Of a DNA stretch of 10,710 nucleotides, positions 1 to 10,710 are shown one piece after another. The notes below the pieces were generated by a model. It ran no database searches. It had not been told where the DNA came from and saw nothing but the letters and a program-made list of their open reading frames with translations. Position 1 is the first letter of the stretch, and each line of letters opens with the position of its first letter. The translations under genes and the position numbers were made by a program. This stretch comes from a virus (taxonomy: Duplodnaviria > Heunggongvirae > Uroviricota > Caudoviricetes), in IMG/VR virus record IMGVR_UViG_2778261301_000001, positions 1 through 10,710 of that record. One strand, given 5' to 3'.

Positions 1-77
1 GAAAAACGAGTATTTTTAGTCATCCTGTTTACCTCTTTCTCAGGAAGTTTAGTCTCCAGGATTCCCGGGGCGGTTCA
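1..77 (-). mobile_element. Left terminus (IRL plus first codons of orfA) of an IS3-family element, IS629/IS1203/IS3411-like; the element body lies off-window to the left
   Basis: Positions 1-77 are the exact reverse complement of 10634-10710. On the minus strand the sequence reads TGAACCGCCCCGGGAATCCTGGAGACTAAACTTCCTGAGAAAGAGGTAAACAGG then ATG ACT AAA AAT ACT CGT TTT (MTKNTRF), matching the IS3-family TG terminus and the recalled IS629 OrfA N-terminus. The repeat ends exactly at 77/78. Confidence 0.75.
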
Positions 78-2106
78 CTGCTTTGTCATCGATGTTTCTG
101 GCTTGAGCCAGTTTATAGACAGTGTTTGCCTGACTCTCCATCGCATCCTGCTGGGCAGTAAATGCTTTGATTTGAGTTTGAGCAGTTTCGTTAGTTGCTT
201 TTTGCGCTTCTGCCTGCGCTGCTACCATTTGCGCCTGAGCGAGAACCATTTCAGGATTTGGCTGGCTTTGTGCTGCCATTTGCGCCTGTTGAACAATCTG
301 CTGCTCTTTCTCATTGCGTGGTTTTGCAATACCAGATATCAGCAGTTGGTTTCGGTTGTACTCTTTGAAGTCATCAAGGCCTTCGCCATCGATATTGTCC
401 AGAATAATACCCTGAATTGCCGGGCGCATTGGGTCTGTTGGAAGCATAGAGCTAAGGACATTTGTCAGTACAGAAACCGTTGCATCACGTCGTGCTGTGT
501 AGCTTGGTCCAACATCAACCGTCACATCGTATCGACCGACAGAAAGGTCATTTAACGCAACAACAGCCCCTGTTTGCCTGTCAACAACCTGTGCGCTCAG
601 GACAGCGATATCATCACTTCCATCTTCGTTAACGATGCGCACTTCACGTTCTGAACCGTACACTTCACGCGCCATTGACAGCCATACTTCACCAGCGCGT
701 TTAAGACTTTTCGCCATATTGTCCAGATAGATAAACGAAGCCATATCTGCTCTGTTCATCAAGTTGTTAACCGTTTCCTGAGCAATATTACTTGGCATCT
801 GCTGCATGGCCTGACTGCCGCCTGTAACCTCCTGAATATCTGCACTGGTTTGCTGTAGTAATGCAGCCAATGCCTGATTCATAACCGCAGGCTGTGTATA
901 TCCTGCCGGGGTAGCTCCAGCGATGATGTTGCCAGATTTATCTCTCACTTCGCGCAACGGCAAGAACGCTGGTCGTTTCTTGTTGCGAGCCTCCCAGTGC
1001 TTCTCAAGTCCACGTATTTGCTCCATGCCAACTATAGGGATCTGACCTGGGTCTTGCGCTGCAGTATCAGCCAGCATTGATACCTGAAGGTTGTACAAAC
1101 GCTGTGGATCCATTGCTTTTGCAATATGTCCTTCGACACGCTCAATGTCATCAATGAACCAGCGTTTTCCATAAACCGGGATGAGGGGGATATGCTCACC
1201 AGGAATACGTCGAGGTTTCTCAAGGAAACCATCACCATCCACTACGGATACATACACACGACGGCGCTTCACTGAGCGCCTTGCCACTTCCTGAAATCCA
1301 GCTATTGCCAGTTCATCTTCAATATCTTCGACCTGATCACTGTCGTATGTTGCAATCTCTCCAGTGATTGGATGACGATAACTGATAACGTCAACAGACT
1401 CTTTACGAACTTCGTAATACTTCGCTATGTAAATAACATCTGCATCAAACCAGTCATATTCCCAACTGGTCATAGACGTTACATCCAGAGAAGCAGGAGG
1501 TTTCTTTCCGTATTCAGCCTCATATTTTTCAGGTGACAACGAATACATGCAGAACGCCCACAACGCGTCAGATTTGTCGTACTTCTTAGCGTCAGGGTCA
1601 AACCACACAGAGCGCGACGGGTCGTATATTGGTTCAATAGCAATACGCTGACGATCGTCCATGGGGTCGTATTCATTGACCAGCATCGACGTCAAACGGA
1701 AGCAACCGAAACCACCAGTAGCAGCGTCGTCAAATGCATTATCGCAAGCCTCACCGCCATCAGTTTCTTCGTAGTCAGCACGGAACAGACCATTTAATTT
1801 ATTAGCTAACTCTTCGCTTGCCTCTCTGTCACCAGGACGAAACTTAACTGTGATTCTGTTATTGCGGTATTCTGCAATGATGCGGTTAAGTTCAGTTGCT
1901 ACCTTGTTGATTTCAAACTTAGGATACTTCTCGAACTGCTCATCAAGCTTAGTTCCAGCCGCCGTTGCTCCTTCCCATTGACCTCCGGGGACACGAGCAA
2001 ACCTCGTAGCTTCAATGCACTTTTCGCGCACTTCCTGCTGTGGAGAATAGGCGCGGTCAAACCTGAGCATGATCCGCTCATGTTTTTTCTCTAATGTCTC
2101 TGCCAT
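49..2106 (-). CDS. Phage portal protein (P22/Sf6 gp1/gp3 family), 3' end truncated and fused to IS sequence
   Basis: About 685 aa from the ATG at 2106-2104 (the ORF track's TTG at 2115 is less likely). Long collinear similarity to the recalled P22 portal, e.g. FYEV..., KRRRVY, GEHIP(L/I)(I/V)PV(Y/F)G, NMRADM. The last ~9 codons (..NRPGNPGD, stop at 49-51) lie inside the IS terminus at 1-77. Confidence 0.88.
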   Translation of the reverse strand: MAETLEKKHERIMLRFDRAYSPQQEVREKCIEATRFARVPGGQWEGATAAGTKLDEQFEKYPKFEINKVATELNRIIAEYRNNRITVKFRPGDREASEELANKLNGLFRADYEETDGGEACDNAFDDAATGGFGCFRLTSMLVNEYDPMDDRQRIAIEPIYDPSRSVWFDPDAKKYDKSDALWAFCMYSLSPEKYEAEYGKKPPASLDVTSMTSWEYDWFDADVIYIAKYYEVRKESVDVISYRHPITGEIATYDSDQVEDIEDELAIAGFQEVARRSVKRRRVYVSVVDGDGFLEKPRRIPGEHIPLIPVYGKRWFIDDIERVEGHIAKAMDPQRLYNLQVSMLADTAAQDPGQIPIVGMEQIRGLEKHWEARNKKRPAFLPLREVRDKSGNIIAGATPAGYTQPAVMNQALAALLQQTSADIQEVTGGSQAMQQMPSNIAQETVNNLMNRADMASFIYLDNMAKSLKRAGEVWLSMAREVYGSEREVRIVNEDGSDDIAVLSAQVVDRQTGAVVALNDLSVGRYDVTVDVGPSYTARRDATVSVLTNVLSSMLPTDPMRPAIQGIILDNIDGEGLDDFKEYNRNQLLISGIAKPRNEKEQQIVQQAQMAAQSQPNPEMVLAQAQMVAAQAEAQKATNETAQTQIKAFTAQQDAMESQANTVYKLAQARNIDDKAVNRPGNPGD

Positions 2107-2108
2107 GT

Positions 2109-3521
2109 TTACCAACCGGAGGATGAGGGAACGTATATTTCAGTTTCTTCGCGGACCAATGCCGGGCAATGCATACACATCATCAGCGCATCAGCCAGGT
2201 TAGGAGATGGAATACCGAGCTTCTGCTTCATTTCGACCTTAGTCATTAGCTCCAGCTTCCCGTTTTTATTGAATTTGCGCTGAATCTGCGTCAGTTCTGC
2301 AAACAGCTTCTCCAGCATCTTCTCGCCTATCGCTTCTTTGTCGAAACTCAGCATGTCGTCGGGGTCTGCATACTCACCGTGAACAACCGCCCGATATGTC
2401 AGATACAGCCTGTCAGCCAGCGCGTAATAGAATTGCGCTCGCTTATTGCGAAATACATCGCCAATAGTGCGAACGTTGTCGCCCTGTACTACTTCATCAG
2501 CCCATGCTCCGGCCTGATACGGCGCATCTTCATCGAATGGCGATTCGCTGCCCTTGAACATCGTGGCGGTGATTTTCTTGCCGGAGAACGCTTCCGTTGT
2601 CTGTCTGCGTAGCCCGGCACCAACACCATCACCATCCCACAGGTAATGGTCAGCGCCGTCTTCAATCGCCAGCGAAGTAGCCCAGTCAGCACCTTCATTG
2701 ATGTCCATCAGCAGGCCTTCGGCAATGCGCTTAACTACCGAACCGTGGCGCGATGCATAACCTTTAGCATCTGGCCCTGTATCTGATGGGTCATGCGCAG
2801 AGACAACAGCGCCTTTCGCTTTCCATCCGAGTTTCTTGTGCGCATCGGTTGCAGCTTCAAGCCATTCACGTTTGATGATTGCCATATCACTTGCGCTCAC
2901 TGGCTCACCAAGCCAGATGTGACGATACAGTGTCGGATTTCTGCGTTTACACTCTTCCATCTCCAGACGGAGAACTTCAGGAAAGTGCGGGTTGTCTGTA
3001 TAGTTCACCGTCAGCAGACAAATATCATCGGGAGGATTTACAACGAATCGCTGATAGGTATCGTCGAGAATGTTCTTAGGGTTGAAGCTCACCCATATTT
3101 CGGAAAACGGCTTGCGGATGGTTGGTATCAGGATATCCCATGATTCCTTCGTTACCGCTTCCGCTTCTTCCACCCAGCAGATATCAATGCCTTCGAGCGA
3201 TTTAATCTTCGTCGGGTTGTTTTTTATGCCGTAGAACATGAATTCAGCATTCGTTCCGAGATGACGAATCATTGAACGCTGAATTTCAAACTCAGCCGAA
3301 TACCCTTCCCGCTCGATGGTGTCTTCAAGCAACCGGATTACCGAATCGCTGATGCTGTTTTGCAGTTCACGAGCGCAGAGAATACGCACAGGCTGCCGAC
3401 GCGCCGCTTCAACAAGAAGCCTCGCAATTGCCCATGACTTACCGCTACCTCGACCGCCTTTGGCGACTTTGTAGCGATGCGCCTCAATAAACGGTTCAAA
3501 GATAGGATTAATCGAGGTCAT
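2109..3521 (-). CDS. terL: Terminase large subunit (Sf6 gp2-like; ATPase plus nuclease)
   Basis: 470-aa ORF with an N-terminal Walker A motif (VAKGGRGSGKSWA) and a Walker B-like ICWVEEAE. It sits directly upstream of the portal with a 2-nt spacer, and its length and sequence match the recalled Sf6 TerL. Confidence 0.93.
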   Translation of the reverse strand: MTSINPIFEPFIEAHRYKVAKGGRGSGKSWAIARLLVEAARRQPVRILCARELQNSISDSVIRLLEDTIEREGYSAEFEIQRSMIRHLGTNAEFMFYGIKNNPTKIKSLEGIDICWVEEAEAVTKESWDILIPTIRKPFSEIWVSFNPKNILDDTYQRFVVNPPDDICLLTVNYTDNPHFPEVLRLEMEECKRRNPTLYRHIWLGEPVSASDMAIIKREWLEAATDAHKKLGWKAKGAVVSAHDPSDTGPDAKGYASRHGSVVKRIAEGLLMDINEGADWATSLAIEDGADHYLWDGDGVGAGLRRQTTEAFSGKKITATMFKGSESPFDEDAPYQAGAWADEVVQGDNVRTIGDVFRNKRAQFYYALADRLYLTYRAVVHGEYADPDDMLSFDKEAIGEKMLEKLFAELTQIQRKFNKNGKLELMTKVEMKQKLGIPSPNLADALMMCMHCPALVREETEIYVPSSSGW

Positions 3522-3943
3522 TTTCCGAATAGAGTGCTCATCGGTGATGTTTCAATCTGGATTGCGCCGCCGTCCTTACCGACAAGCTCGTTAGTTACCT
3601 TGTCGCCATACTTACGGGGATTCATTCTGGCCAGCGCCCATTTGCGGGTATCAACGCGAAGTCTTGCCTTTGCCACCTCGGCGGCATCAGGGATTACGTC
3701 GTCAGCAATTTCGAATATCTCTTCGAAAATAGAGTCGGCCCGAGTCTCTGTTGCCTTCGCGTACTGGTCACGAAACTCCTGATGTTCAGCCAGCCAGCGA
3801 AAAACTGATGTTTTGCTCGGCATTCCTGGGCGTTCGCAAACTTTGCGCAGACTCTCGCCGGAGGAAAGCAATGCGCAAATGTCATTAGCCACCTCCGGCA
3901 TATAATCAGAGGGGCGACCACCTTTCTTTTTCTCAGTCGCCAT
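3518..3943 (-). CDS. terS: Terminase small subunit (Sf6 gp1-like)
   Basis: 141-aa ORF whose TGA overlaps the terL ATG (ATGA). The N-terminus MATEKKKGGRPSDYMPEVANDICALL... matches the recalled Sf6 small terminase, and a GAAGGGA Shine-Dalgarno lies upstream. Confidence 0.85.
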   Translation of the reverse strand: MATEKKKGGRPSDYMPEVANDICALLSSGESLRKVCERPGMPSKTSVFRWLAEHQEFRDQYAKATETRADSIFEEIFEIADDVIPDAAEVAKARLRVDTRKWALARMNPRKYGDKVTNELVGKDGGAIQIETSPMSTLFGK

Positions 3944-4022
3944 ATTGATTATTTCCCTTCTGCTTGCTTATCCCATTCATCGCGGAATTTGGATGGGTTG
4001 TCGAAACCTTGAGTTGCCATGT

Positions 4023-4265
4023 TTACGCTCCGGTAGTGAACAGGTCTAACGCTTCCTTCGATTTACGCACCGCTTCGAATGTGCGGATCGTGATATCCGA
4101 ATTAGCGCCGCCTGACTGGAAGTGAATTTTAAATAGCTCAAGCTTCAGCTCGTCAGTGCCAATGAATTGAAATGCTTCTTCTGCGGCTGCGTTCTGGTTC
4201 ATGACCAGTTTGTAAATCTCTAACTGGAATTTCTGTTCTTCAGTCATGGGAATAATCTCTGCCAT
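4023..4265 (-). CDS. Hypothetical small protein (80 aa) upstream of terS
   Basis: Clean ORF with a GGAG Shine-Dalgarno 7 nt upstream of the ATG at 4265-4263, same strand and operon context as the terminase genes. No family recognised. Confidence 0.55.
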   Translation of the reverse strand: MAEIIPMTEEQKFQLEIYKLVMNQNAAAEEAFQFIGTDELKLELFKIHFQSGGANSDITIRTFEAVRKSKEALDLFTTGA

Positions 4266-4281
4266 TGTTGGCTCCGTTTAT

Positions 4282-4312
4282 CCGTTAAAAGGGATATCAG
4301 TTAAGTTATCCC
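4282..4312 (-). terminator. Candidate intrinsic terminator (weak) between the moron and the 80-aa gene
   Basis: Inverted repeat GGGATA..TATCCC at 4291-4312 (6-bp stem, 10-nt loop), followed on the minus strand by TTTTAACGG (plus 4282-4290). Confidence 0.3.
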
Positions 4313-4574
4313 GTGCAGGGTATAAGCCATTGTCGAGACCACTCATTGAATGGTCTCTGCAATAACCGATGTCTTTCCATCAGTCCGCCACCACAAAGAA
4401 TCTTTTTTGCCATAAGGCAGGAGGTTCATCTTTCAGTGGCTGCCAGTTTATTTCCCCACTTTCTGGCTTGGGTTGTTTCGCTGTACTGCCGTTAATTGGT
4501 GAGTCCGGGGATTATTTCAGTTCGTTACCAGGCATTTCTTTTAGCTCTTTCAAATGACAACGATTGAGGCTAAA

Positions 4575-4997
4575 TCACTCCCCGTGCGACCTATAGTTGT
4601 AATATTTTTGGTGCAATTTGGTTTCAAGCTCTCTATCGGCAGGAATCTTTGCAATTAGATTTAGCTTCCCACCACTCATGCGAGATATCTCTGAAATTCG
4701 TTTATTAACCCTGCGACTAAACCCTATTTTTGTTAGCCCACTATCTTCAGCATGCAGAACGTACACATATGATTTTTGCGAAGCACTGGGTGCGACTTTG
4801 TTGTAATTAATCATGTCAAACATAAAGCCTTGCTTTAGCAAAGTTTCAAAAAAGATAGAATTAACACACCCATTCCTTCTCAGCTCTGCACTTAGCTTGT
4901 CAATTTCCTCTATGATGTCGCCAGACCCCTTTCCACTTATAAGAAAATCTTGGTACATGCGACCAATTCTTGAGGTAATTTCAACAAAGTTATTCAT
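4575..4997 (-). CDS. Moron-encoded protein with a C-terminal T5orf172 / MUG113 (GIY-YIG-like) domain; ends at an in-frame TGA where the family's conserved Trp is expected
   Basis: 140 aa from the first ATG (4997-4995), with AAAGG about 10 nt upstream. The C-terminal half reads SYVYVLHAEDSGLTKIGFSRRVNKRISEISRM...ELETKLHQKYYNYRSHGE-stop-F, matching the T5orf172 pattern (YVYVL, KIG, R..EIS, E..LH, GEWF). The region is locally AT-rich compared with the flanking phage genes. The ORF track's 221-aa version begins at a TTG and is probably over-extended. Confidence 0.65.
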   Translation of the reverse strand: MNNFVEITSRIGRMYQDFLISGKGSGDIIEEIDKLSAELRRNGCVNSIFFETLLKQGFMFDMINYNKVAPSASQKSYVYVLHAEDSGLTKIGFSRRVNKRISEISRMSGGKLNLIAKIPADRELETKLHQKYYNYRSHGE

Positions 4998-5135
4998 AGC
5001 GTCTTTACCTTTTAGAAAGTGAGCCTGTCTCACAGAAAAGCCGCCCGAGAGAGGTCGCCACCTATAACGGCATTTCTCAGGCTCGCTTACTGAAAGGCTC
5101 TCGTTAATATGCGCGTGAGATGCGCTGTGAAATTC

Positions 5136-5165
5136 AGATATAAAAAGCCCCGCGAATGCGAGGCT
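5136..5165 (-). terminator. Candidate intrinsic terminator downstream of the lysis cassette
   Basis: Plus 5146-5165 AGCCCCGCGAATGCGAGGCT forms an 8-bp stem with one mismatch and a GAAT loop. On the minus strand it is followed by TTTTTATATCTG. Confidence 0.45.
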
Positions 5166-5339
5166 AAATCCTGGTATTTGTAATGAACTGGCTCTTATCT
5201 CAACGCAGCCCCTTACTGCGCGCCAGATGCTCAATATCAAGCATCAGCAATGAGATGTTTAATCTGGATTTACTCCAGAAGTGATCACCACCCTGTCTAC
5301 AGAGCCAGATGTGAAGGATGATGAGTAAAATTATCGCTA

Positions 5340-5777
5340 TCATCGAAGGCATTGCGTCCTAATGTATTCCTGCAGGTAGTTAACCTGCGCGGTTATCTTG
5401 TCGATTCCACTTCGGAGACGGTAATAATTGAGTTCAGCATCTGCTGTAAGTCCTGGGCTTTCTCCATCGCCCATGCCGCTGGCTCCGGTCGTTGACTTTG
5501 CACAGGTGGCGGCGACTTGCAGGCGCTTACGCCCAGCAGAAACATCAGCACGGAGACTTTCAATAGTCGCGTTAGCATCAGCAAGCTCCTTTGTGTATCT
5601 GGCGTCAAGTTCTGCTACATCACGTTGACGCTTCTGCATGTCAGCGATTGTGGATGTGGCCTTATCGCGCTGCTCTTTGTAGGTCATGGCGTTATCACGG
5701 TAATGATTAACAGCCCATGACAGGCTGACGATGATGCAGATAACCAGAGCGGAGATAATCGCGGTTACTCTACTCAT
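5340..5777 (-). CDS. Rz: Rz i-spanin (inner-membrane spanin subunit)
   Basis: 145 aa. The N-terminus [29 protein letters not shown] is near-identical to recalled lambda Rz (N-terminal TM segment, coiled-coil periplasmic domain). Its ATG overlaps the R stop (ATGA). Confidence 0.88.
5393..5578 (-). CDS. Rz1: Rz1 o-spanin (outer-membrane lipoprotein), embedded in the +1 frame of Rz
   Basis: Embedded ORF reading [26 protein letters not shown]...PEPAAW. It has a signal peptide with a lipobox (VSAC) and a proline-rich mature region typical of Rz1. The exact start is uncertain (Met at 5578 or a downstream Met). Confidence 0.72.
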
Positions 5778-6250
5778 ACCTCAATCTCTCTGACCGTTCC
5801 GCCTGCTTCTTTGAATTTTGCAATCAGGCTGTCAGCCTTATGCTCGAACTGACCGTAACCAGCCCCCGGCAGTGAAGCCCAGATATTGCTGCAACGGTCG
5901 ATTGCCTGACGGATATCACCGCGATCAATCATCGGCAAAGCGCCACGCTCTTTAATCTGTTGCAGTGCCACAGCGTCCTGGCTTTTCGGAGAGAAGTCTT
6001 TCAGTCCAAGCTGCTTGCGGTAGGCATCCCACCAACGGGAAAGAAGCTGATAGCGCCCGGCTGCTGTTGATTTGAGTTTTGGGTTTAGCGTGACAAGTTT
6101 GCGAGGGTGATCGGAGTAATCGGTAAATAGCTCTCCGCCTACAATGACGTCATAACCATGATTTCTGGTTTTCTGACGTCCGTTATCAGTTCCCTCTGAC
6201 CACGCCAGCATATCGAGGAACGCCTTACGTTGATTATTGATTTCCACCAT
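5774..6250 (-). CDS. R: Endolysin, lambda R-type lytic transglycosylase
   Basis: 158 aa, [51 protein letters not shown]..., essentially identical to recalled lambda R. The start overlaps the S stop as in lambda. Confidence 0.95.
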
Positions 6251-6557
6251 CTTCTACTCCGGCTTTTTTAGCAGCGAAGCGTTTGATAAGCGAACCAATC
6301 GAGTCAGTACCGATGTAGCCGATGAACACGCTCGTTATATAAGCGAGATTGCTACTTAGTCCGGCGAAGTCGAGAAGGTCACGAATGAACCAGGCGATAA
6401 TGGCGCACATCGTTGCGTCGATTACTGTTTTTGTAAACGCACCGCCATTATATCTGCCGCGAAGGTACGCCATTGCAAACGCAAGGATTGCCCCGATGCC
6501 TTGTTCCTTTGCCGCGAGAATGGCGGCTAACAGGTCATGTTTTTCTGGCATCTTCAT
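6234..6557 (-). CDS. S: Holin/antiholin, lambda S (S107/S105 dual start)
   Basis: 107 aa, [39 protein letters not shown]..., near-identical to recalled lambda S. It has the Met1-Lys2-Met3 dual-start motif (ATGAAGATG at 6557-6549). Confidence 0.95.
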
Positions 6558-6682
6558 GTCTTACCCCCAATAAGGGGATTTGCTCTATTTAATTAGGAAT
6601 AAGGTCGATTACTGATAGAACAAATCCAGGCTACTGTGTTTAGTAATCAGATTTGTTCGTGACCGATATGCACGGGCAAAAC

Positions 6683-6712
6683 GGCAGGAGGTTGTTAGCG
6701 CAACCTCATGCC
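6683..6712 (-). promoter_or_regulatory. Conserved GC-rich stem-loop in the S leader (lambda-like)
   Basis: GGCAGGAGGTTG / CAACCTCATGCC (12-bp stem, one mismatch, 6-nt loop), followed on the minus strand by GTTTTGCCCGTG. The same structure sits at the same place upstream of S in recalled lambda sequence. Function not assigned here. Confidence 0.5.
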
Positions 6713-6847
6713 ACCCGCTTTCACGAAGCCAGCCATTACGCTGGTTTTCTTTTATGCAAAGCACACCGCACCGTAGCCACAGCGGATAAGGTGATTATTT
6801 TTGTCTGTCTGGTATTTGGGTTGATGTGCTTTCAGAAAGGTCGTGAT

Positions 6848-6886
6848 TAAAACGCAAAAAGCCCCGAGCTATTAACTCAGGGCTTT
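6848..6886 (-). terminator. Promoter-proximal intrinsic terminator of the late operon (tR'-equivalent; target of Q antitermination)
   Basis: On the minus strand, GCCCUGAG-UUAAUAG-CUCGGGGC (8-bp GC-rich stem, extendable to 11 bp) is followed immediately by UUUUUGCGUUUU. It lies about 25-65 nt downstream of the predicted pR' start. Confidence 0.6.
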
Positions 6887-6905
6887 ATTTAACGAGTGCA
6901 TTTAT

Positions 6906-6948
6906 CCATCGTTTGGTCAAATTTACCCAACTTTATTCAAAAAGTCAA
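6906..6948 (-). promoter_or_regulatory. Late promoter pR' with Q-utilisation (qut) region
   Basis: The minus strand reads TTGACT (plus 6943-6948), a 17-bp spacer, TAAATT (plus 6920-6925), then TTGACCAAACGATGG. This is nearly identical to recalled lambda pR' (TTGACTTATTGAATAAAATTGGGTAAATTTGACTCAACGATGG), including the pause-inducing AACGAT element. Predicted +1 is near 6912. Confidence 0.75.
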
Positions 6949-6990
6949 TATCATGCCGTTAATATGTTGCCATCCGTGGCAATCATGCTG

Positions 6991-7614
6991 CTAACGTGTG
7001 ACCGCATTCAAAATGTTGTCTGCGATTGACTCTTCTTTGTGGCATTGCACCACCAGAGCGTCATACAGCGGCTTAACAGTGCGTGACCAGGTGGGTTGAG
7101 TAAGGTTTGGGATTAGCATCGTTACAGCGCGATATGCGGCGCTTGCTGGCATCCTTGAATAACCGACGCCTTTGCATCTTCCGCATTCTTTCTCAACAAC
7201 TCTCCCCCACTGCTCTGTTTTTGCTATATCAACCGCACGGCCTGTACCGTGGCAATCTCTGCATCTTGCGCCCGGCGTCGCGGCACTACGGCAATAATCC
7301 GCATAAGCGAATGTTGCGAGCACTTGCAGTACCTTAGCCTTAGTATTTCCTTCGAGCTTTGCCACACCACGGTATTTCCCCGATACCTTGTGTGCAAATT
7401 GCATCAGATAGTTGATAGCCTTTTGTTTGTCGTTCTGGCTGAGTTCGTGCTTACCACAGAATGCAGCCATTCCGAATCCGGCTTGTGATTGCGCCATCCC
7501 CATAGCAGCCATCACATCAGTACCGGAAAGAGAGTCAGAAGCCGTAGCCCGTGGTGAGTCGCTCATCATCGGGCTTTTTGGCGAATGAAATTTAGCTACG
7601 CTTTCGAGTCTCAT
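6991..7614 (-). CDS. Q: Late-gene antiterminator Q (lambda-type)
   Basis: 207 aa, MRLESVAKFHSPKSPMMSDSPRATASDSLSG..., essentially identical to recalled lambda Q, with a zinc-binding CRDCHGTG...CGRCKG region. It sits immediately upstream of pR'. Confidence 0.95.
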   Translation of the reverse strand: MRLESVAKFHSPKSPMMSDSPRATASDSLSGTDVMAAMGMAQSQAGFGMAAFCGKHELSQNDKQKAINYLMQFAHKVSGKYRGVAKLEGNTKAKVLQVLATFAYADYCRSAATPGARCRDCHGTGRAVDIAKTEQWGRVVEKECGRCKGVGYSRMPASAAYRAVTMLIPNLTQPTWSRTVKPLYDALVVQCHKEESIADNILNAVTR

Positions 7615-10473: not shown

Positions 10474-10633
10474 TCAATCACCGTTAATCGTTTCACTCAC
10501 GAATCTGACAAAACCAGCCATGTTTATTTGCATGAGTTTTTTCAACACCTTGTCTCGTCGGCTACGTTTTGGTTTTGGCCTGTGGTTGAATCTTTCACAA
10601 ACTGGAAGGCTTGATGATTTCCAGTACCTATTA
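10474..10633 (-). pseudogene. 3' remnant (51 codons) of a phage gene interrupted by the right-hand IS insertion
   Basis: The minus-strand frame is open from the IS junction (10633) to a TGA at 10474-10476: ..NRYWKSSSLPVCERFNHRPKPKRSRRDKVLKKLMQINMAGFVRFVSETINGD*. There is no upstream start within phage DNA, and the stop is 1 nt from the next gene's ATG. The parent gene is unknown (replication-region position). Confidence 0.4.
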
Positions 10634-10710
10634 TGAACCGCCCCGGGAATCCTGGAGACTAAACTTCCTGAGAAAGAGGTAAACAGGATGACTAAAAATA
10701 CTCGTTTTTC
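10634..10710 (+). mobile_element. Left terminus (IRL plus first codons of orfA) of a second IS629-like IS3-family copy, inverted relative to the copy at 1-77; body off-window to the right
   Basis: TGAACCGCCCCGGGAATCCTGGAGACTAAACTTCCTGAGAAAGAGGTAAACAGG then ATGACTAAAAATACTCGTTTTTC (orfA start at 10688). Exact reverse complement of 1-77. Confidence 0.75.

What the first reader, a model, noticed from the sequence alone, without database searches (positions are those of the whole stretch)
4512..4580. In-frame TGA exactly where the T5orf172 domain's conserved Trp (GEWF) is expected, with the frame staying open 19 more codons
The moron ORF ends ...YYNYRSHGE-TGA-FSLNRCHLKELKEMPGNELK-TAA. The family's C-terminal signature is GEWF, so the stop occupies the Trp position (TGG to TGA is a single transition). 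Either a nonsense mutation inactivated the gene, or the 140-aa form is the main product with low-level UGA readthrough giving a 160-aa form. A frame that stays open past the stop favours a recent or functional event over an old pseudogene.
Basis: partly seen in the sequence, partly recalled or inferred. Interest (0 to 1): 0.6.

Follow-up and report, generated by a model that had tools for sequence, protein, structure and literature searches.

The report
Nonsense mutation in prophage nuclease gene
A single G-to-A change has turned the one tryptophan codon of an accessory prophage nuclease gene into a stop codon; this is an ordinary, recent gene inactivation in an E. coli prophage that insertion sequences have already broken.

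Summary
On the minus strand an ORF (ATG 4997) ends ...YYNYRSHGE-TGA (4577-4575). The frame then stays open for 20 more codons (not 19) to TAA (4514-4512).

All 44 related copies I read carry TGG at this codon and give a 161-aa protein. They come from E. coli chromosomes, Salmonella phages epsilon34 and g341c, IMG/VR contigs, and relatives only 60-62% identical. None of 57 complete E. coli genomes with the gene has the TGA. The Trp is invariant in 146 of 146 family representatives, and none has fewer than 10 residues after it.

The TGA allele is rare but real. The exact 140-aa protein is on record on two E. coli contigs, against more than 1,300 contigs for the 161-aa forms. I found no sign of programmed recoding:
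- the context is UGA-U, which terminates efficiently;
- there is no RNA structure, Rfam family or tRNA gene nearby;
- the flanks are identical to those of TGG alleles.

The window is a whole contig bounded by two inverted copies of an IS3-family element. One copy cuts the portal gene and the other a nin-region gene, so the prophage is already decaying.

Verdict: a young TGG-to-TGA nonsense mutation. Any rare readthrough by tRNA-Trp would rebuild the wild-type protein, but only by accident. Interest is low.

The parts
4575..4577 (-). Premature TGA stop at codon 141, which is TGG (Trp) in every relative read. The mutated base is window position 4575.
   Evidence: 0 of 57 complete E. coli genomes match a 61-nt probe centred on it exactly.
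4578..4997 (-). Truncated ORF of 140 codons. It comprises an N-terminal three-helix domain (residues 1-68) and most of a T5orf172/MUG113 (GIY-YIG superfamily) domain (residues 77-140).
   Evidence: Pfam MUG113 E=5.4e-8 and T5orf172 E=7.7e-6, covering only positions 2-54 of the 73-position MUG113 profile. AF2 models. The protein is on record as WP_244587579.1.
4512..4574 (-). Stranded C-terminal coding segment: 20 sense codons (FSLNRCHLKELKEMPGNELK) plus TAA. In intact copies it encodes the end of the last strand and the last helix (146-153).
   Evidence: It has no nucleotide differences from four of the intact copies read (L005, L006, L009, L010). Helix seen in the model.
4990..5060 (-). 5' flank, start codon and first two full codons. 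This stretch is shared at 100% identity with prophages whose slot holds Rha or KilA-N genes instead, so it marks a cassette-exchange junction.
5146..5165 (-). Terminator-like hairpin upstream of the gene. A Rho-independent terminator is annotated in the equivalent upstream intergenic position (after gene 67, before gp68) in phage epsilon34; I did not align the two.
1..77 (-). End of an IS3-family insertion sequence (terminal repeat plus the start of orfA, MTKNTRF...). It is inserted in the 3' end of the portal gene.
78..2106 (-). Portal gene matching HK620 portal residues 1-677 of 708. The last 31 residues are replaced by 8 residues read out of the IS.
10634..10710 (+). Second copy of the same IS end, the exact reverse complement of window 1-77. 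It is inserted about 23 nt into a DUF7301-family nin-region gene.
2109..4265 (-). Neighbouring late genes of full length: large terminase (2109-3521), small terminase (3518-3943) and a DUF2560 protein (4023-4265).
5200..7614 (-). Upstream late genes whose lengths match the annotated counterparts in HK620 or related E. coli prophages: a 50-aa ORF, Rz spanin, endolysin, holin and antiterminator Q.

Best explanation
This is a recent, private nonsense mutation: TGG to TGA, a G-to-A transition at window position 4575 on the gene strand. It lies in an accessory T5orf172/MUG113 (GIY-YIG superfamily) nuclease-like gene of an HK620/P22-like prophage of E. coli. Translation by the standard code stops after Glu140 (shown). 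The product therefore lacks the family's invariant Trp141-Phe142 and the C-terminal helix (shown). It is most likely inactive or unstable (inferred). The gene sits in the late region of a prophage already cut by two copies of an IS3-family element, one of them in the portal gene (shown). Selection on late and accessory phage genes is therefore probably relaxed, and the stop is one step of ordinary prophage decay (inferred). UGA is occasionally misread by Trp-tRNA(Trp), so a very small fraction of ribosomes would rebuild the exact wild-type 161-aa protein. That would be a by-product of the code, not an evolved device (inferred).
For: - Sequence: the stop and the open frame are as described.
- Orthologues: 10 fetched copies (E. 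coli chromosomes, Salmonella phages epsilon34 gp68 and g341c gp64) and 34 further loci, including relatives only 60-62% identical, all have TGG and a 161-aa ORF. Six of the ten fetched copies differ from the window's reading frame only at residue 141, including copies annotated as WP_001058931.1.
- Population: 57 complete E. coli genomes match the 61-nt probe and none matches exactly; 29 differ at exactly one base. The three of these that were fetched show that base is the stop.
- Rarity: the exact 140-aa protein is on record on 2 contigs. The 161-aa members of the same cluster are on >=1000, 263, 26, 15 ... contigs. The TGA 45-mer is absent from GTDB representatives, IMG/VR and JGI metagenomes.
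- The allele is real: a second NCBI assembly (GCA_052340885.1) carries the same TGA on a contig that differs from the window at 1 of 5,104 bases.
- Family constraint: W141 is in 146 of 146 representatives, E140 in 146 of 146 and F142 in 145 of 146. The shortest tail after the Trp is 10 residues and the median is 23.
- Structure: in the model of the intact protein (pLDDT 95.3), W141-F142 form a strand followed by helix 146-153.
- Mutation spectrum: 2 of the 7 possible transition-type nonsense changes fall on this codon.
- Decay context: both contig ends are the same IS3-family end. One cuts the portal gene at codon ~677 of 708 and the other a DUF7301 gene.
- Other disrupted copies exist elsewhere: a PGAP pseudogene lacking its C-terminus in strain VTB97584v and frameshifted or fused forms P0014, P0004-P0006, P0013, P0015.
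- No recoding signals: no tRNA, no Rfam family, and the fold z-score around the stop is -0.13. The +4 base is U, which lowers readthrough (PMC5289835).
Against: - Loss of function is inferred, not measured. The truncated product keeps every invariant polar residue (Y79, K90, G92, R100, E125, H129, E140).
- AlphaFold still models the remaining residues confidently (pLDDT 93.6). AlphaFold is not a stability test, however.
- NCBI annotates the 140-aa form as an ordinary protein, not a pseudogene.
- All other genes in the window apart from the two IS-cut ones have full length, so decay is limited.
- I could not show that the prophage is non-inducible.
- The two assemblies with the allele could come from one study, so their independence is unproven.
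Confidence: 0.88

Rival explanations
1. Leaky-stop attenuator. The UGA is kept because near-cognate Trp-tRNA(Trp) readthrough yields a small dose of exact wild-type nuclease alongside a 140-aa form, for example to tame a toxic enzyme.
For: In E. coli, UGA is the leakiest stop and is read as Trp by tRNA(Trp) in competition with RF2 (PMC10570021, PMC7918605). Readthrough here would therefore restore the native residue. The downstream 20 codons are intact.
Against: The stop is absent from all 44 relatives read and from 57 complete genomes, and is on record on only 2 contigs. The +4 base is U, the context with the least readthrough (PMC5289835). There is no downstream structure or RNA family. The flanks are identical to those of TGG alleles, so nothing has co-evolved with the stop. 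The intact tail is what a young mutation would show anyway.
Confidence: 0.04
2. The 140-aa protein is itself a functional, nuclease-dead derivative. It might act as a DNA-binding or regulatory protein through its N-terminal helical domain, much as satellites have domesticated T5orf172 homing-endonuclease relatives.
For: The N-terminal three-helix domain and most of the core are retained and modelled confidently. Domesticated relatives of T5orf172 genes exist, such as CapR of the PLE satellite (PMC10448857).
Against: No family representative ends before the Trp; the minimum is 10 residues after it. The allele is private. There is no compensating change anywhere else in the gene: all other differences from the intact copies identical in protein are synonymous.
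Confidence: 0.04
3. Sequencing or assembly error. The true base is G and the gene is intact.
For: The change is a single base in a draft short-read contig, and I could not inspect raw reads.
Against: The same TGA is present in a second NCBI assembly whose contig differs from the window at one other base in 5.1 kb. The change is a substitution outside any homopolymer run.
Confidence: 0.04

Closest known systems
Intact orthologues: E. coli WP_001058931.1, Salmonella phage epsilon34 gp68 and phage g341c gp64 ('GIY-YIG nuclease family protein', 161 aa)
   Same: They share the same slot between the lysis genes and the DUF2560/terminase genes of P22-like phages. Nucleotide differences across the gene number only 3-7 (486 nt). 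Several of them, including epsilon34 gp68, g341c gp64 and copies of WP_001058931.1, are identical in protein apart from residue 141.
   Different: They have TGG at codon 141 and end at the TAA. The window copy stops after Glu140.
T5orf172 homing-endonuclease genes of phages (ICP1 and T5-like phages) and ICP1 Odn/Gp88
   Same: They share the T5orf172 domain of the GIY-YIG superfamily. They are sporadically distributed, often sit next to terminase genes, and are frequently inactivated by mutation (PMC10448857). Odn has shown nuclease activity that depends on a conserved Glu (PMC8263062).
   Different: The N-terminal domain here is a three-helix bundle, not the CapR-type zinc finger or RepA_N DNA-binding domains of those proteins. 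No cleavage or homing has been shown for this gene.
Natural UGA leakiness and programmed UGA readthrough (for example the coat-protein extension of RNA coliphage Q-beta; established knowledge)
   Same: A UGA can be read as Trp by tRNA(Trp), giving a C-terminally extended product (PMC5289835, PMC10570021).
   Different: In programmed cases the stop is conserved and the extension has its own function. Here the stop is private to two contigs, sits in the UGA-U context and interrupts a domain.
Short-lived in-frame stop codons in prokaryotic genes (Belinky et al. 2021, PMC7918605)
   Same: It is an in-frame stop in an otherwise intact gene with an undegraded downstream frame.
   Different: That survey focused on stops shared by two or more species. 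This one is not shared with any relative. Its authors also conclude that most such stops are transient and deleterious.

Membership tests
T5orf172 / MUG113 domain family (GIY-YIG superfamily) | Match to the Pfam models above their gathering scores | tested here: met
   For the 140-aa product, MUG113 scores 33.7 bits (cut-off 22.3) and T5orf172 scores 26.8 bits (cut-off 20). With W restored the scores are 50.1 and 39.2 bits.
T5orf172 / MUG113 domain family (GIY-YIG superfamily) | Invariant core residues (Y79, K90-I-G92, R100, E125, H129, E140) | tested here: met
   All are present in the window's product and invariant across 100-146 representatives.
T5orf172 / MUG113 domain family (GIY-YIG superfamily) | Invariant Trp-Phe after Gly-Glu (GEWF), followed by at least 10 further residues | tested here: not met
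   The product ends at E140. W is in 146 of 146 and F in 145 of 146 representatives, and the shortest tail is 10 residues. The missing residues are still encoded downstream of the stop.
T5orf172 / MUG113 domain family (GIY-YIG superfamily) | GIY-YIG fold confirmed against solved structures | tested here: inconclusive
Programmed stop-codon readthrough | The stop codon is conserved among orthologues | tested here: not met
   TGG in 44 of 44 relatives read; 0 of 57 complete E. coli genomes match the TGA probe exactly.
Programmed stop-codon readthrough | Leaky sequence context or a stimulatory downstream structure | tested here: not met
   The context is UGA-U, and +4U lowers readthrough (PMC5289835). 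The fold z-score is -0.13.
Programmed stop-codon readthrough | Extended product detected | not testable with these tools
   This needs a reporter fusion or mass spectrometry.
Selenocysteine recoding of UGA | A SECIS hairpin directly downstream of the UGA | tested here: not met
   No Rfam family in the window and no significant structure. The downstream sequence is the same as in TGG alleles.
Suppressor-tRNA or alternative-code decoding | A phage-borne suppressor tRNA | tested here: not met
   The window holds no tRNA gene.
Suppressor-tRNA or alternative-code decoding | In-frame TGA codons in neighbouring genes | tested here: not met
   The neighbouring ORFs are uninterrupted under the standard bacterial code, and apart from the two IS-cut genes their lengths match annotated counterparts.
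Free-standing homing endonuclease gene | Sporadic presence in a conserved slot next to essential phage genes | tested here: met
   The gene is in 58 of 5,426 complete E. coli genomes. The same slot, with identical flanks, holds Rha or KilA-N genes elsewhere. The terminase genes lie just downstream.
Free-standing homing endonuclease gene | Site-specific DNA cleavage and homing | not testable with these tools
   No experiment was possible, and the N-terminal domain has no recognised DNA-binding family.
Pseudogene by nonsense mutation | Intact orthologues, a single-step change to a stop, and loss of conserved residues | tested here: met

The most novel reading that the evidence does not exclude
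The UGA at the sole, invariant Trp codon works as a self-correcting attenuator. Because E. coli misreads UGA as Trp, the allele would give a trickle of perfectly wild-type nuclease. A lysogen could then keep a potentially toxic phage nuclease at a harmless dose, and one transition would restore full expression.
Probability: 0.04. Interest if true: 0.4.

Novelty: already known. Interest (0 to 1): 0.1.

Why it matters
It matters little beyond annotation. NCBI lists the 140-aa product (WP_244587579.1) as a normal GIY-YIG family protein, but the evidence here says it is a truncated allele lacking an invariant motif. It would be better flagged as disrupted. The case is also a clean small example of two points. 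First, Trp codons are preferred sites for transition-type nonsense mutations. Second, an open frame after a stop shows that the mutation is young; it is not evidence of function. If the leaky-stop idea were true, it would be a modest addition to known ways of tuning gene dosage.

Tried and rejected
- Exact-match scans for the TGA 45-mer in GTDB representative genomes, IMG/VR and JGI metagenomes all found nothing. The allele turned up only through an exact-protein look-up.
- A profile search of PDB sequences gave only marginal GIY-YIG hits.
- hhalign against the I-TevI catalytic domain (sequence checked against 1mk0) aligned only the first motifs, with probability 12%. I therefore do not say which Glu is the catalytic one.
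- Modelling the truncated protein with AlphaFold gave a confident model (pLDDT 93.6). The last strand was lost and pTM fell from 0.71 to 0.62. I give this no weight as a stability test.
- dN/dS on the 20-codon tail against relatives 60% identical was too saturated to be useful. The ratios of 0.5-0.8 are noisy. Retention of the 161-aa length and of the WF...L..EL...GN residues is the better evidence that the tail is coding.
- I considered and rejected selenocysteine, a suppressor tRNA and an alternative genetic code.
- The PADLOC defence-system match was marginal: PDC-S57, E=3.7e-4. NCBIfam gave nothing.

Full report
**What is there.** The feature is on the minus strand. An ORF starts at ATG 4997-4995 and reads MNNFVEITS...HQKYYNYRSHGE. 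A TGA follows at 4577-4575. After it come 20 further sense codons in frame (FSLNRCHLKELKEMPGNELK) and a TAA at 4514-4512. The 140-aa product matches Pfam MUG113 and T5orf172, both of the GIY-YIG superfamily, above their cut-offs. It covers only positions 2-54 of the 73-position MUG113 profile. With Trp put back, the match runs to position 71 and the score rises from 33.7 to 50.1 bits.

**Setting.** The window is the late region of an HK620/P22-like (Lederbergvirus-type) prophage. On the minus strand, in order of decreasing coordinate, it holds the nin genes, Q, holin, endolysin, Rz, a 50-aa ORF, the GIY-YIG gene, a DUF2560 gene, the small and large terminase genes and the portal gene.
- The gene occupies a known variable slot. 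Its 5' flank, start codon and first two full codons, and its 3' flank, are 100% identical in hundreds of prophages where the slot holds Rha or KilA-N genes instead.
- A terminator-like hairpin lies upstream at 5165-5146. Phage epsilon34 has a Rho-independent terminator annotated in the equivalent upstream position, between gene 67 and gp68.
- No sigma-70-like promoter was found upstream. Expression is therefore probably from Q-antiterminated late transcription; this is an inference.

**Orthologues.** The gene is present in 58 of 5,426 complete E. coli genomes.
- Eight fetched E. coli copies and the orthologues in Salmonella phages epsilon34 (gp68) and g341c (gp64) are all 486 nt. They have TGG at codon 141 and differ from the window at only 3-7 nucleotides. 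Six of the ten, including copies annotated as WP_001058931.1, are identical in protein to the window's reading frame except for W141.
- A 61-nt probe centred on the stop matches 57 complete genomes and none exactly. Twenty-nine differ at exactly one base. In the three of these I fetched, that base is the stop.
- Thirty-four further loci all give a 161-aa ORF with TGG after HGE. These are 33 IMG/VR contigs and one MAG contig, and they include four relatives only 60-62% identical whose synonymous sites are saturated.

**Family constraint.** I ran an exhaustive HMMER search of 1.84 billion cluster representatives.
- Among 146 aligned representatives, E140 and W141 are invariant (146 of 146) and F142 nearly so (145 of 146).
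- Every one of these proteins continues at least 10 residues past the Trp, with a median of 23. A form ending at Gly-Glu is therefore not a natural architecture.
- An AlphaFold model of the intact protein (pLDDT 95.3) shows a three-helix N-terminal domain (residues 3-68) and an alpha/beta domain. In that domain W141-F142 complete a short hairpin with 136-138 and are followed by the last helix, 146-153.
- The stop removes these elements. It leaves all invariant polar residues in place: Y79, K90, G92, R100, E125, H129 and E140.

**How rare and how real.** The exact 140-aa protein is in NCBI as WP_244587579.1 / EPO2147823.1, named 'GIY-YIG nuclease family protein [Escherichia coli]'.
- It is on record on two contigs. 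The longer is 10,710 bp, so the window is that whole contig.
- The other is a 5,104-bp contig of assembly GCA_052340885.1. It equals window 776-5879 with one mismatch (position 2265) and carries the same TGA. A random sequencing error is therefore unlikely.
- The 161-aa members of the same 90% cluster are on >=1000, 263, 26, 15, 11 ... contigs.
- The TGA 45-mer is absent from GTDB representative genomes, IMG/VR and JGI metagenomes.

**Why the Trp codon.** The gene has one Trp codon. Of 65 possible single-base nonsense changes, only 7 are transitions. All 7 are GC-to-AT, and 2 of them fall on TGG141. A stop 'exactly at the conserved Trp' is therefore what mutation alone readily gives. It is not a coincidence that calls for function.

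**Recoding tested and not supported.**
- The base after the stop is U. +4U is the context with the least readthrough, whereas +4A or +4C favour misreading (PMC5289835).
- The 101 nt around and after the stop fold no better than shuffled sequence (z = -0.13).
- No Rfam family reaches its threshold anywhere in the window.
- The window has no tRNA gene.
- The neighbouring ORFs are uninterrupted under the standard code, and apart from the two IS-cut genes their lengths match annotated counterparts.
- The flanks of the stop are the same as in TGG alleles, so nothing has evolved around it.

In E. coli, UGA readthrough results from Trp-tRNA(Trp) competing with RF2 (PMC10570021; see also PMC7918605). 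Rare readthrough here would therefore insert the native Trp and rebuild the wild-type protein. I treat that as an incidental consequence, not a mechanism.

**Prophage decay.** The first 77 and last 77 bases of the window are exact reverse complements of each other. They match the end of an IS3-family element that is present in thousands of copies across E. coli genomes.
- The left copy interrupts the portal gene after residue ~677 of 708 and replaces the last 31 residues with 8.
- The right copy interrupts a DUF7301-family nin-region gene about 23 nt after its start.
- The phage segment 78-10633 thus lies between two inverted IS copies. At least two phage genes besides the GIY-YIG gene are disrupted.
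- The remaining ORFs in the window have lengths consistent with annotated counterparts in HK620 or related E. coli prophages; I compared lengths against the annotation tables, not sequences gene by gene.
- Independent disruptions of the same gene exist elsewhere. One is a PGAP-flagged pseudogene lacking its C-terminus in strain VTB97584v. Others are frameshifted or fused forms in the protein database (P0014, P0004-P0006, P0013, P0015).
- This fits what is reported for T5orf172 genes of phages. Many behave as free-standing homing-endonuclease genes next to terminase or other essential genes and are often inactivated (PMC10448857). A T5orf172 protein, ICP1 Odn, has shown nuclease activity that depends on a conserved Glu (PMC8263062).

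**Conclusion.** This is a young TGG-to-TGA nonsense mutation in an accessory, probably nuclease-encoding, prophage gene of an IS-riddled E. coli prophage.
- Shown: the mutation, its rarity, the invariance of the lost residues and the IS insertions.
- Inferred: loss of function of the 140-aa product, relaxed selection, and trace restoration of wild-type protein by natural UGA misreading.
- Not tested: the biochemical function of the intact protein.

The finding is ordinary and I score it low. The one practical point is that the 140-aa RefSeq protein is better regarded as a disrupted allele.

Noticed in passing
window 1-77 and 10634-10710: The two ends of the window are exact reverse complements of each other. 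Both are the same end of an IS3-family insertion sequence (terminal repeat plus the start of orfA, MTKNTRF...). The 77-nt length suggests overlap from a short-read assembly graph. From memory the sequence resembles IS629/IS1203-type elements; I did not verify this. The phage segment therefore lies between two inverted IS copies.
   Followed up: yes
window 49-2106 (minus strand): The portal gene matches HK620 portal residues 1-677 of 708. It then runs into the IS, which replaces the last 31 residues with NRPGNPGD and a stop.
   Followed up: yes
window 10560-10633: The second IS copy interrupts a small DUF7301-family gene of the nin region about 23 nt after its start. It separates the nin and late genes from the replication genes seen in an uninterrupted relative (E. 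coli 2016C04-116).
   Followed up: partly
window 4990-5060 and 4480-4514: The sequences flanking the GIY-YIG gene, including its start codon and first two full codons, are 100% identical in hundreds of E. coli, Salmonella and Enterobacter phages and prophages whose slot holds Rha, KilA-N or HNH genes. This marks a conserved cassette-exchange junction.
   Followed up: partly
window 5146-5165 (minus strand): A terminator-like hairpin followed by a T run lies between the 50-aa ORF and the GIY-YIG gene. Phage epsilon34 has a Rho-independent terminator annotated in the equivalent position, upstream of gp68. No promoter-like site lies between the hairpin and the gene.
   Followed up: partly
window 6558-6990: The Q-to-holin interval has no tRNA genes here, whereas related prophages (E. 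coli strains 755 and VTB97584v) carry tRNA-Asn and tRNA-Thr at that place.
   Followed up: partly
L012 (JAUVQU010000080.1): A copy of the gene whose protein match is 99% identical sits on a 9.7-kb contig binned into a 'Cellvibrionaceae' metagenome-assembled genome. This is probably a mis-binned enterobacterial phage contig.
   Followed up: no
window 2265: This is the only difference between the window and the second assembly carrying the TGA allele: T here, G there, inside the large terminase gene. I did not check whether it is synonymous.
   Followed up: no
L048 (E. coli VTB97584v) and hit H98/H220 (E. coli PI24): These are independent 3'-truncated copies of the same gene. Similarity ends about codon 145 and unrelated DNA follows. 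PGAP flags the VTB97584v copy as a pseudogene missing its C-terminus.
   Followed up: partly
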